NCBI GenBank assembly: GCA_017616975.1
Contig: JAFZXC010000035.1
Span: 1 to 49,528 of the forward strand
Length of the DNA: 49,528 nucleotides
DNA from: Alphaproteobacteria bacterium
GTDB lineage: Bacteria > Pseudomonadota > Alphaproteobacteria > Rs-D84
Direction of reading: 5' to 3'
Below are positions 6,677-8,227 of the stretch, one piece after another. The notes below the pieces were generated by a model, which saw nothing but the letters and a program-made list of their open reading frames with translations, did no database searches and was not told where the DNA came from. Numbering within the stretch: position 1 is the stretch's first letter; each line of letters begins with the position of its first letter. The position numbers and the translations under genes were made by a program.

Positions 6677-8227
6677 TTACATGTCGTCTGGAATGTCGTT
6701 TACGTCAATATCTGGGATTTCTGTATCGGTTGCGGCCTGGGGTTGTGGCATATCATCAACCGGGATAAAGGCCGCCGCCGCACGTGCCGCCGCATCGTCC
6801 AGGTTGTCGAACAAACTGTATTCGCCAAAGAACGCAGTGTGAATCGTTTCGGTGCGACCATGACGGTTTTTACCGATAATGATTTCTGCACGGTTATGTG
6901 CACGTTCCATACGGCGTTTGTAGTTTTCCTGGATTTTTTCATTGACGTTGCCAGAAATTTTGTTCGATGGATCACGGTTTTCAAGATAGTATTCTTCACG
7001 ATACGTGAACATAACGATATCGGCGTCTTGTTCGATAGACCCAGAATCACGCAAGTCGGAAAGCATTGGGTGTTTATCATCACGTGATTCGACACTACGT
7101 GACAATTGGGACAATGCAATAACAGGAACGTCCATTTCCTTGGCCAAGATTTTCAGATTTCGTGTGATTTCCGATAATTCTTGAACACGGTTATCGGTTT
7201 TACGTCCGCCAGGCAATGTCATAAGCTGTAAATAATCAATCACAATAAGTGCGATGCCACCAGCTTTGCGTGCAAGACGACGGGCGCGAGTTCGCATCAT
7301 TGGAACCGACATACCGGGTGTATCATCAATATATAATGGAACACGACTTAATGCCGAAGCATATTGGGTTAATTTTAAAAAGTCGCTGTCGTTTAACGAG
7401 CCGTCACGTTGTGCCGAGACCGGAATCTTGGCCTGGGATGATACGACACGTGCCGCTAATTGGCTTTGAGACATTTCAAGGCTGAAAAATACAACGGCAC
7501 CTTTGTATCTGTCGTTTGCACGACCCGATAATATCGCATTGGCTGCATTAAATGCGATGTTCATTGCCAATGTCGTTTTACCCATACCGGGACGTCCTGC
7601 AATGATAATCAAATCAGAATGATGCAAGCCACTGATTGATTTATCCAAATCGGTCAGCCCCGTCGTTAAGCCGGACAATTTTCCATCGGCCTTGTATGCG
7701 ACCTGGGCTTCGTTCAATGCTTGCTGTAATGCGGTTGATAATGGTGCCACTTCGTGTTCAGAAGAACCAGTTGTTGCCATGTCGAACAATTTTTGTTCAG
7801 CAACTTCGATTTGGCGAGCAACAGGATTGTCTAAATCTTCGGTAAATGCAGAATCGGTAATTTCTTGACCGATAGAGATTAAATCACGACGCATTGCATT
7901 TTCATAAACAATGCGGCCGTATTGTTCAACGTTGACAACCGTTGCACCGGCCCCCGCCAATTGCGCCAAATAGTCAACACCACCAACAGATTCAAGCGTT
8001 CCCTGTTGATCAAGATAGTTTTTCGCAGTGATAATATCAAATGGAATTCCCGCCGAAAACTGACGCAGGGCAAGTTTATAAATTTCTTGGTGCGCCGGAT
8101 GGGAAAAATGTTCCGGTTTCAAAAATTCCGAAACACGTTCCAATGCACGATTGTCCATTAAAACAGCCGCCAAAACAGCCTGTTCGGCTTCTAAATTAGT
8201 TGGTAAAGTTTTCGGGGTAAAGTCCAT
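6677..8227 (-). CDS. dnaB: Replicative DNA helicase DnaB
   Basis: N-terminal LEAEQAVLAAVL, Walker A GRPGMGKTT, Walker B LIVIDYLQLM and IALSQLSR. Start set at Met50 of the tracked ORF (MDFTPKTLPTNLEAEQ). The 49 upstream codons are antisense to terL-C. Confidence 0.9.
   Translation of the reverse strand: MDFTPKTLPTNLEAEQAVLAAVLMDNRALERVSEFLKPEHFSHPAHQEIYKLALRQFSAGIPFDIITAKNYLDQQGTLESVGGVDYLAQLAGAGATVVNVEQYGRIVYENAMRRDLISIGQEITDSAFTEDLDNPVARQIEVAEQKLFDMATTGSSEHEVAPLSTALQQALNEAQVAYKADGKLSGLTTGLTDLDKSISGLHHSDLIIIAGRPGMGKTTLAMNIAFNAANAILSGRANDRYKGAVVFFSLEMSQSQLAARVVSSQAKIPVSAQRDGSLNDSDFLKLTQYASALSRVPLYIDDTPGMSVPMMRTRARRLARKAGGIALIVIDYLQLMTLPGGRKTDNRVQELSEITRNLKILAKEMDVPVIALSQLSRSVESRDDKHPMLSDLRDSGSIEQDADIVMFTYREEYYLENRDPSNKISGNVNEKIQENYKRRMERAHNRAEIIIGKNRHGRTETIHTAFFGEYSLFDNLDDAAARAAAAFIPVDDMPQPQAATDTEIPDIDVNDIPDDM

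What the first reader, a model, noticed from the sequence alone, without database searches (positions are those of the whole stretch)
6677..8227. A canonical-looking replicative helicase gene nested antisense inside a phage gene
The DnaB here has the full N-terminal domain, Walker A and B, and the arginine finger region, so it looks like a cellular-type DnaB. However, it lacks the neighbourhood I would expect for an alphaproteobacterial dnaB. Instead it heads a compact dnaB / XRE regulator / orphan operon enclosed by terL halves.

One possibility is that this is the only chromosomal dnaB, so an essential gene has been captured inside the phage-derived locus, which would lock that locus in place. 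The other is that it is a second, element-borne helicase. Together with the CI-like regulator it would then form the replication and immunity module of the phage-like element, in a very unusual position.
Basis: inference. Interest (0 to 1): 0.6.

Follow-up and report, generated by a model that had tools for sequence, protein, structure and literature searches.

The report
Host dnaB between split terminase halves
The helicase gene is the bacterium's only, ordinary replication helicase; it sits in the gap between two separately encoded halves of a phage-derived DNA-packaging enzyme that was already split before the helicase arrived, so it is a relocated host gene and not a phage replication module.

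Summary
Window 6677-8227 (-) encodes a complete 516-aa cellular-type DnaB. It is followed on the same strand by a CI-like double-HTH regulator and an orphan gene, and is flanked by the N and C halves of a T7-type large terminase.

- **Lineage:** the genome is a Candidatus Enterousia MAG (order Rs-D84, about 0.9 Mb).
- **Copy number:** it has one DnaB, as do all relatives searched.
- **Family scores:** the protein passes the cellular DnaB equivalog cut-offs and fails the phage_DnaB cut-off.
- **Phylogeny:** order-wide monophyly of DnaB is the best-scoring tree.
- **Split terminase:** terL is two ORFs broken at the same residue in every family of the order, including families where only 175-335 nt separates the halves. 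dnaB therefore entered a spacer and did not break a gene.
- **Conservation:** the layout is in 66 of 66 fully covered species loci and in eight genera of the family. Two genera have dnaB in sense orientation.
- **Selection:** both terL halves are under purifying selection.
- **No lock-in:** the element has decayed around dnaB in several genomes.
- **New detail:** the first 16 codons of terL-C show exceptional synonymous constraint, consistent with an embedded dnaB promoter.

This scan found the same system earlier in other Enterousia genomes. I found no paper describing it.

The parts
6677..8227 (-). dnaB: the sole replicative DNA helicase, 516 aa. It carries a family-specific C-terminal linker and an acidic tip, IPDDM (6680-6694).
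   Evidence: Pfam PF00772 + PF03796. NCBIfam NF006606 605 bits against a 540 cut-off and TIGR00665 514 against 385; phage_DnaB TIGR03600 416 against 498.65, so it fails that model. Single copy. Motif positions, tail. dN/dS 0.03-0.07.
5605..6609 (-). Double-HTH XRE regulator with a lambda-CI/LexA-like C-terminal domain, 334 aa.
   Evidence: Pfam HTH_3 twice. AlphaFold model mean pLDDT 70, C-domain 80-90. Foldseek matches lambda repressor 7jvt and 2ho0 (TMt 0.62) and the LexA C-domain 6a2s (0.60). No Pfam S24 hit. dN/dS 0.05-0.09. The best promoter-like site of the region lies at 6635-6608.
4921..5580 (-). Orphan 219-aa all-alpha protein, always paired with the XRE gene.
   Evidence: No Pfam, NCBIfam or PHROG hit. 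Confident model with pLDDT 87. No PDB or BFVD structural match at E <= 0.001. dN/dS 0.07-0.14.
4319..4924 (+). terL-N: the N-terminal ATPase half of a T7-type large terminase (Walker A, Walker B, motif III), ending just after GTPHTTDTIY.
   Evidence: Aligns to T7/T3 gp19 residues 19-215 (PDB 8dgc, 4bij). NCBIfam termin_lrg_T7 positions 2-191 of 500, 233.9 bits. dN/dS 0.02-0.08.
8226..9077 (+). terL-C: the rest of the ATPase domain plus the RNaseH-like nuclease half of the terminase, 283 aa from the ATG at 8226.
   Evidence: NCBIfam termin_lrg_T7 positions 223-500. Pfam Terminase_6C and Terminase-T7_RNaseH-like. dN/dS 0.09-0.18. The start is conserved as CATG.
8235..8273 (-). Nucleotide-level constrained element inside terL-C codons 4-16. 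It is a candidate dnaB promoter (TTGAAA 8262-8257, 16 nt, TACTAT 8240-8235), ending 7 nt before the dnaB ATG.
   Evidence: Third-position entropy is 0-0.3 bit against a gene median of 1.61. All ten lowest 6-codon windows of terL-C lie at codons 3-12. That is lower than any window in dnaB, terL-N, orf219, portal or XRE. A remnant is kept upstream of dnaB in G072 after terL-C was lost.
530..4296 (+). Upstream T7-like structural genes: capsid 530-1357, tail tubular A-like 1640-2188, tubular B-like 2211-3926, and a small conserved protein at about 3946-4296.
   Evidence: Pfam Phage_capsid_2 1.1e-70, Tube 6.7e-4. Collinear in all relatives.
9099..10331 (+). T7-type portal (head-to-tail connector).
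   Evidence: Pfam Head-tail_con 3.7e-81. Found in 186 of 201 genomes of the order.

Best explanation
The gene is the ordinary, essential, vertically inherited replicative helicase of Candidatus Enterousia.

The whole order Rs-D84 carries a domesticated T7-like head/tail/packaging gene cluster. In that cluster the large terminase was already encoded as two separate genes, split after motif III of the ATPase (...GTPHTxxxIY).

In the ancestor of the family that contains Enterousia, a chromosomal rearrangement placed dnaB in the spacer between the two half-genes. In most genera the CI-like regulator and its orphan partner sit there too.

dnaB works as any DnaB does. It is probably transcribed from a promoter that now lies inside the first 16 codons of terL-C, and may read through into the regulator and orphan genes. 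The two terminase halves stay functional as separate polypeptides.

The layout persists in Enterousia mainly because the junctions have no spare DNA: the stop codons overlap and the start codons are shared. Almost any new breakpoint would therefore damage a selected gene. The layout does not persist because dnaB serves the phage-like element.

Shown: gene identity, single copy, the pre-existing split, conservation, purifying selection, and the constrained element. Inferred: the promoter function, co-transcription, two-piece terminase activity, and neutrality of the position.
For: **Identity and copy number**
- One DnaB in the own genome. One full-length copy in each of the 30 of 31 relatives where one was found. 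The extra hits are a frameshift, a contig break and a 25%-identity non-DnaB.
- The protein passes NF006606 and TIGR00665 and fails phage_DnaB.
- The best phage-database hits are at most 48% identical, and the top hit is an unverified faecal scaffold. Alphaproteobacterial cellular DnaBs are 47-52% identical.
- The family's DnaBs form one clade (SH-aLRT 88). A tree constrained to order monophyly scores 27 lnL units better than the free quick search (p-AU 0.81).

**Split terminase**
- terL is split at the same residue, with only 175-335 nt between the halves, in families f2, f4 and f5. The halves are also separated or re-ordered in f3 and f6.
- The two halves together cover T7-terminase profile positions 2-191 and 223-500.
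- dN/dS is 0.02-0.18 for both halves.

**Conservation of the layout**
- The layout is identical in 66 of 66 complete loci.
- dnaB lies between the halves in eight genera of the family, in sense orientation in g14 and g15.

**The spacer behaves as ordinary chromosome**
- It holds recG, a tRNA-like stretch and other genes in G054, and a TOTE defence gene in G044.

**Embedded element**
Against: - The single-gene DnaB tree has little power. Forcing the family's DnaBs together with Caulobacter and Synechococcus phage DnaBs costs only 18-22 lnL units and is not rejected (p-AU 0.25-0.28).
- The window's own assembly is only 80% complete.
- Promoter-like matches in the region are no more frequent than in shuffled sequence (16 against 12.9 +/- 3.6). 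The promoter reading therefore rests on conservation alone, and a translation-initiation constraint on terL-C itself is not excluded.
- Sister families place ftsZ next to the portal gene. Repeated interleaving with cell-cycle genes could mean the position is selected and not neutral.
Confidence: 0.72

Rival explanations
1. Positional lock-in. The essential dnaB between the terminase halves is retained by selection because it protects the phage-derived cluster from deletion.
For: - The layout is invariant in 66 of 66 complete Enterousia loci, even though the flank beyond the portal differs between species.
- Other families interleave another core gene, ftsZ, with the cluster.
Against: - Portal retention is similar with and without a nested dnaB: 161/171 against 24/29.
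- The element has been lost around an intact dnaB in G072, G097, G095 and G151. G088 is a caught intermediate, with a truncated capsid gene and a truncated terL-C.
- In a genome of about 900 genes most genes are essential, so any gene that lands in the cluster is likely to be essential.
Confidence: 0.1
2. Regulatory interlock. The head-on and divergent arrangement is selected to make chromosome replication and particle production mutually exclusive or coupled. The capsid-to-terL-N transcript converges on the dnaB operon, and the dnaB promoter lies inside terL-C. The co-transcribed CI-like regulator would act as the switch.
For: - There is exceptional synonymous constraint exactly at the dnaB/terL-C junction.
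- There is no intergenic DNA at either junction.
- The regulator has a CI-like fold.
- ftsZ and mipZ lie beside the portal gene in sister families.
Against: - In g14 and g15 dnaB is in sense orientation. In g15 and in G095 the regulator is elsewhere. The geometry is therefore not conserved across the family.
- The regulator persists in genomes without capsid or portal genes.
- There are no expression data.
Confidence: 0.1
3. Element-borne second helicase. dnaB plus the CI-like regulator form the replication and immunity module of a phage-like element.
For: - The regulator has a CI-like fold.
- PHROG DnaB-like families match, as they do for any DnaB.
- The AU test cannot reject a phage sister group.
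Against: - There is no other dnaB in any of the genomes searched.
- The protein fails the phage_DnaB cut-off and passes the cellular equivalogs.
- Sister families have their single dnaB away from the cluster.
- The closest T7-like phages use a gp4-type helicase, not DnaB (general knowledge).
Confidence: 0.03
4. Dead prophage. terL was pseudogenised by insertion of host genes and the halves are decaying remnants.
For: A few genomes do show decay (G088, G072).
Against: - Both halves are intact ORFs with dN/dS 0.02-0.18 across species whose dS is at least 1.
- The same split is found order-wide.
- The portal gene is in 186 of 201 genomes.
Confidence: 0.03
5. The terminase is rejoined at the RNA, protein or DNA level (intron, intein, or developmental excision of the 3.3-kb block), so dnaB lies inside a removable intervening element.
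For: The break falls inside a domain. The variable few-residue tails after ...IY resemble read-through into an intervening sequence.
Against: - No Rfam intron was found in the empty spacers.
- The tails of 1-6 residues are far too short for a split intein.
- No flanking direct or inverted repeats rise above chance, and no recombinase is present.
- Each C half has its own start codon in every family.
- Excision would remove the only dnaB.
Confidence: 0.02

Closest known systems
Cellular replicative helicase DnaB of Alphaproteobacteria (NCBIfam NF006606 / TIGR00665)
   Same: Same domain architecture, motifs, length class and single-copy status. Scores exceed both equivalog cut-offs.
   Different: The genomic position differs: it lies between the terminase half-genes. 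It also has a family-specific C-terminal extension of 30-45 residues ending in a conserved (I/V)PDD(M/F) tip, which is absent from sister families and from other Alphaproteobacteria.
T7-type large terminase (T7 gp19 / T3 gp19; PDB 4bij, 8dgc; NCBIfam NF033889)
   Same: The N half aligns to gp19 residues 19-215 with Walker A, Walker B and motif III. The C half covers the remaining profile, including the RNaseH-like nuclease.
   Different: It is encoded as two ORFs broken inside the ATPase domain. The closest database phages, Autographiviridae at about 35% identity, have single-ORF terminases.
Gene transfer agents (RcGTA, BaGTA, CcGTA) and the podovirus-like FpGTA of Faecalibacterium (PMC12946183)
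   Same: A phage-derived structural and packaging cluster that is vertically inherited and under purifying selection, in a host lineage.
   Different: It has T7-like ancestry, a split terminase, and core host genes (dnaB here, ftsZ in sister families) interleaved within the cluster. Particle production and DNA packaging have not been shown.
Phage genes naturally split into two polypeptides (general knowledge: T4 topoisomerase gp39/gp60; Aeromonas phage Aeh1 NrdA split by mobE)
   Same: An enzyme normally made as one chain is encoded as two genes and still works.
   Different: Those splits are associated with a homing endonuclease or a small insert. Here the spacer is empty in some families and holds host housekeeping genes in others.
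Lambda CI / LexA-type repressors
   Same: The regulator downstream of dnaB has N-terminal HTH domains and a C-terminal domain with the CI/LexA fold.
   Different: It has two HTH domains and gives no Pfam S24 match. By eye the catalytic Ser appears to be replaced (GGILP in place of G-x-S-M-x-P); this was not tested. The gene is kept in genomes that have lost the phage-like genes.

Membership tests
Cellular DnaB replicative helicase | N-terminal DnaB domain plus C-terminal RecA-like domain with Walker A, Walker B and the arginine-finger block | tested here: met
   PF00772 1.7e-31 and PF03796 1.4e-99. Motifs are at aa 211-218, 329-335 and 392-403.
Cellular DnaB replicative helicase | Score above the curated equivalog cut-offs | tested here: met
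   NF006606 605.1 bits against 540; TIGR00665 514.3 against 385.25.
Cellular DnaB replicative helicase | The only DnaB homologue of the genome | tested here: met
   One match in the own assembly, which is 80% complete. One full-length match in each of 30 relatives, many of them 94-97% complete.
Cellular DnaB replicative helicase | Descent with the host lineage | tested here: inconclusive
   The family clade has SH-aLRT 88. Constraining order monophyly improves lnL by 27, p-AU 0.81. A phage-sister constraint is not rejected, p 0.25-0.28.
Cellular DnaB replicative helicase | Hexameric 5'-3' helicase activity, essentiality | not testable with these tools
   Needs biochemistry or genetics.
Phage DnaB (NCBIfam TIGR03600) | Score above the curated cut-off | tested here: not met
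   416.4 bits against a 498.65 cut-off.
T7-type large terminase (NF033889) | One polypeptide with ATPase and nuclease domains | tested here: not met
   There are two ORFs, profile positions 2-191 and 223-500. The N half scores 233.9 against the 150 cut-off; the C half alone scores 101.2, below it. The split is order-wide.
Gene transfer agent | Phage-derived particle genes vertically inherited under purifying selection | tested here: met
   Portal in 186 of 201 genomes of the order. dN/dS 0.02-0.19.
Gene transfer agent | Particles that package host DNA and transfer it | not testable with these tools
Lambda CI/LexA-type self-cleaving repressor (the XRE gene) | HTH plus an S24-fold C-terminal domain | tested here: met
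   HTH_3 twice. Foldseek 2ho0 TMt 0.62 and 6a2s TMt 0.60.
Lambda CI/LexA-type self-cleaving repressor (the XRE gene) | Catalytic Ser-Lys dyad and cleavage site | tested here: inconclusive
   No Pfam Peptidase_S24 hit at E <= 0.01. Residue-level superposition was not done.

The most novel reading that the evidence does not exclude
The interleaving is selected wiring and not an accident. In this order a domesticated T7-like particle cluster is physically interlocked with core cell-cycle genes: the sole dnaB between the terminase halves in one family, and the sole ftsZ beside the portal gene in others. In Enterousia the dnaB promoter sits inside terL-C and the structural-gene transcript runs head-on into the dnaB operon. 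Switching on particle production would therefore shut off the replicative helicase supply in the producing cell, or the reverse. The co-transcribed CI-like regulator would act as the switch.
Probability: 0.12. Interest if true: 0.75.

Novelty: new variant of a known kind. Interest (0 to 1): 0.5.

Why it matters
The helicase itself is ordinary. The value is in what its position reveals.

- **Split terminase:** a large terminase can evidently work as two polypeptides, because the split predates the dnaB insertion and both halves stay under selection in hundreds of species.
- **Interleaved cluster:** a domesticated phage cluster can become interleaved with essential host genes without losing function.
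- **Embedded signal:** gene compaction in a 0.9-Mb genome can push a housekeeping promoter into the coding sequence of a phage-derived gene.
- **Natural test of lock-in:** it gives a natural test of the idea that an essential gene can anchor a domesticated element. Here the evidence says the anchoring is at best weak.

I found no paper that mentions the cluster, the split terminase or the dnaB position in Enterousia or Rs-D84.

Tried and rejected
- **Intron in the terL break:** Rfam at gathering threshold on three 'empty-spacer' loci found only tRNAs.
- **Split intein:** the tails after the conserved ...IY are only 1-6 residues, and each C half has its own start codon.
- **Mobile cassette with terminal repeats:** only short, chance-level direct and inverted repeats were found around 4700-8500.
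the DIVY codons coincide with the -10-like hexamer of the constrained element and are missing from C halves of other families. A promoter constraint explains them better.
- **Phage precedent for the split:** the best phage-database matches to terL-N are single-ORF Autographiviridae terminases at about 35% identity. PHROGs does contain short N-only and C-only 'terminase' families (phrog_4758, phrog_5573); I did not follow these up.
- **AU tests for a phage origin of DnaB:** not rejected, low power.
- **Promoter scan:** not enriched over shuffles.
- **Function of orf219:** no family or fold match.
- **Expected rplI/alr neighbourhood:** dnaB flanks in sister families are all different (Era, PriA-like, MetG-like, TypA-like by N-terminal sequence), so the neighbourhood argument carries no weight.
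- **Literature:** no paper links Enterousia or Rs-D84 to phage-like genes.
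Full report
**What is there**

The 516-aa ORF at 6677-8227 on the minus strand is a complete DnaB.
- It has the N-terminal DnaB domain and the C-terminal RecA-like domain.
- It has Walker A, Walker B, SQLSR and the arginine-finger block.
- The longer ORF that the ORF listing reports up to 8374 is not the gene. Homology starts at residue 8 of the ATG-initiated protein, and that ATG is conserved in every relative.

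Two genes follow on the same strand. The first is a 334-aa protein with two HTH_3 domains (5605-6609). The second is a 219-aa protein with no family match (4921-5580).

On the plus strand the block is bracketed by the two halves of a T7-type large terminase.
- terL-N (4319-4924) aligns to T7/T3 gp19 residues 19-215.
- terL-N covers positions 2-191 of the NCBIfam T7-terminase profile, and terL-C (8226-9077) covers positions 223-500.
- Around them lie a T7-like capsid gene, two tail-tube genes and the portal gene.
- The terL-N stop overlaps the orphan's stop. The terL-C and dnaB start codons share one CATG.

**Whose gene is it**

Record titles of related loci name the lineage as Candidatus Enterousia, uncultured gut and rumen Alphaproteobacteria. 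Published work places it in order Rs-D84, with genomes under 1 Mb and a probably partner-dependent lifestyle (PMC12306168).

- The window's own assembly (725 kb, 80% complete) has a single DnaB by protein search and by Pfam profile.
- Thirty of 31 relatives also have one. The few extra hits are a frameshift, a contig break and a 25%-identity non-DnaB.
- The protein exceeds the curated cut-offs of two cellular DnaB equivalog models and falls short of the phage_DnaB cut-off.
- Cellular alphaproteobacterial DnaBs are 47-52% identical. The best phage-database hits are at most 48%, and the top one is an unannotated, 'unverified' human-faecal scaffold.

In a 67-row maximum-likelihood tree, the DnaBs of the family form one clade (SH-aLRT 88) and those of Enterousia another (99). 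The true phage DnaBs sit elsewhere on long branches.
- Constraining all Rs-D84 DnaBs to one clade gives a better likelihood than the free quick search (+27 lnL, p-AU 0.81).
- The tree cannot statistically reject a constraint that joins the family to phage DnaBs (p 0.25-0.28).
- The case for a host gene therefore rests mainly on copy number and family scores.

**The terminase was already split**

The portal gene is present in 186 of 201 genomes of the order, in 20 of 23 genera. The T7-like cluster is therefore an old, order-wide, inherited feature.

In families where dnaB lies elsewhere, terL is still two ORFs.
- They are broken at the same residue: ...GTPHTENSIYY*, ...GTPHTYDTIYANK*, ...GTPHCLNSIYNTEQK*.
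- Only 335, 236 or 175 nt separates the halves, and each C half has its own start codon (G019, G022, G021).
- In two other families the halves are further apart or re-ordered.
- No Rfam intron lies in the empty spacers, and the tails are too short for an intein.

dnaB therefore did not interrupt a gene. It landed in the spacer between two genes.

Both halves are under purifying selection. Nei-Gojobori dN/dS is 0.02-0.08 for terL-N and 0.09-0.18 for terL-C, comparable with the portal, capsid and dnaB genes. dS is near 1-2, so the ratios are rough.

**Distribution of the dnaB position**

- All 18 same-genus genomes examined first show capsid, tubes, terL-N, then orphan, regulator and dnaB on the opposite strand, then terL-C and portal.
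- Among 80 further species loci, 66 cover the whole block and all 66 are identical in order and orientation. The other 14 are cut by contig ends and are consistent.
- Within the family, dnaB lies between the halves in eight genera.
- In two of those genera dnaB is in the same orientation as the terminase genes. In one of these the regulator and orphan are elsewhere in the genome.
- In two other genera the spacer has grown to several kilobases. It holds recG, a tRNA-like stretch and glycosyltransferase-like genes in one case, and a TOTE-type primase-helicase defence gene in the other.

The spacer therefore behaves like ordinary chromosome.

**Does dnaB lock the element in place?**

The evidence is against a strong effect.
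- Portal retention is 161/171 in the family with nested dnaB and 24/29 in the other families.
- One Enterousia genome (97% complete) has no capsid or portal gene and keeps only dnaB, the regulator and the orphan.
- Another is a caught intermediate, with a truncated capsid gene fused next to terL-N and a truncated terL-C.
- Genomes of three other genera keep dnaB with none of the phage genes beside it. In one of these, dnaB now lies next to ppiD, the gene that follows the portal in this window.

Piecemeal deletion on both sides is clearly possible.

The regulator has a lambda-CI/LexA-like fold. Its Foldseek matches are 7jvt, 2ho0 and 6a2s. It persists in three genomes that lack capsid and portal genes, so it is not merely the element's immunity repressor.

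**A regulatory signal inside terL-C**

Across 77 species, third-codon-position entropy in terL-C has a median of 1.61 bit but falls to 0-0.3 bit in codons 5-15.
- The ten lowest six-codon windows of the gene all lie at codons 3-12.
- No window in dnaB, terL-N, the orphan, the portal or the regulator is as low; their minima are 0.56-0.78.
- This stretch (about 8235-8273) lies immediately upstream of the dnaB start on the other strand. It contains TTGAAA, 16 nt, then TACTAT, ending 7 nt before the ATG.
- A recognisable remnant is still present upstream of dnaB in the genome that has lost terL-C.

I read it as the dnaB promoter embedded in the phage-derived gene. This is an inference from conservation, and promoter-like matches as such are not enriched in the region.

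**Why the layout is so stable in Enterousia**

Stop codons overlap at one junction and start codons are shared at the other, so there is no neutral DNA in which a rearrangement could break. Where relatives do have spacers, insertions and inversions have occurred. This mechanical explanation needs no function for the position.

Adaptive readings (anchoring, or a replication-versus-particle interlock) remain possible. I give each about 10%.

**Earlier notes of this scan**

The same system was reported before on other Enterousia genomes, with the same main conclusions. My tests were run independently and agree. Those notes also pointed me to the Faecalibacterium podovirus-like GTA paper (PMC12946183). 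My data explain it better as part of the constrained promoter-like element.

**Limits**

The DnaB trees are quick searches. The window's own assembly is incomplete.

Noticed in passing
whole genome; L133:11219-12739, L134:7584-9296: No FtsZ (PF00091, six-frame profile search) in 0 of 80 genomes (at least 90% complete) of the family, across 12 genera, nor in the own genome. Ten of 12 genomes of the sister families have one. In three sister lineages that single ftsZ lies directly beside the portal gene of the T7-like cluster, with MipZ or an AmiC-like amidase nearby. The scan noted the FtsZ absence before.
   Followed up: partly
window 6680-6810: DnaB of this family alone carries a variable 30-45 residue linker and a conserved C-terminal tip, (I/V)PDD(M/F). 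Sister families and other Alphaproteobacteria end a few residues after the core. It may be a protein-interaction tip.
   Followed up: partly
window 4921-5580: The orphan 219-aa protein gives a confident all-alpha model (pLDDT 87) with no match in PDB or BFVD and no family hit. It is always next to the CI-like regulator, also in a sister family (L134:15764-16582).
   Followed up: partly
L173 (G088) 7345-11903; L172 (G072) 4039-7448: Two Enterousia species show the T7-like cluster being lost. One has a capsid fragment abutting terL-N and a truncated terL-C. The other keeps only dnaB, the regulator and the orphan.
   Followed up: yes
L125:12268-14598 (G044); L176:1544-11985 (G054): In two genera the spacer between the terminase halves has taken up other genes. 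One holds a TOTE-type archaeo-eukaryotic primase plus helicase defence gene. The other holds about 10 kb including recG and a tRNA-like stretch.
   Followed up: partly
L127:8735-9190, L132:8150-9076, L133:14500-14970, L136:13650-14138: Small genes with a prepilin-like N-terminus (for example MKNESGRTLMETLGVLAISG...) lie between terL-C and the portal gene in several other genera and families, but not in this window.
   Followed up: no
L167 (MT835812.1): The best 'phage' database hit to this DnaB (48% identity) is an unannotated, 'unverified' 17-kb human-faecal scaffold labelled Bacteriophage sp. It groups with a cellular alphaproteobacterial DnaB in the tree and may be a mislabelled bacterial contig.
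   Followed up: no
window 14001-16334: A low-G+C stretch (0.35 against about 0.42) holds a 674-aa ORF. The corresponding position downstream of the cluster in relatives holds different glycosyltransferase-like genes, so this flank is variable between species.
   Followed up: no
window 10555-10815: A conserved 86-aa protein with a hydrophobic segment follows the portal gene here and in relatives (L080:11419-11676). It may be a holin-like or membrane component of the cluster.
   Followed up: no
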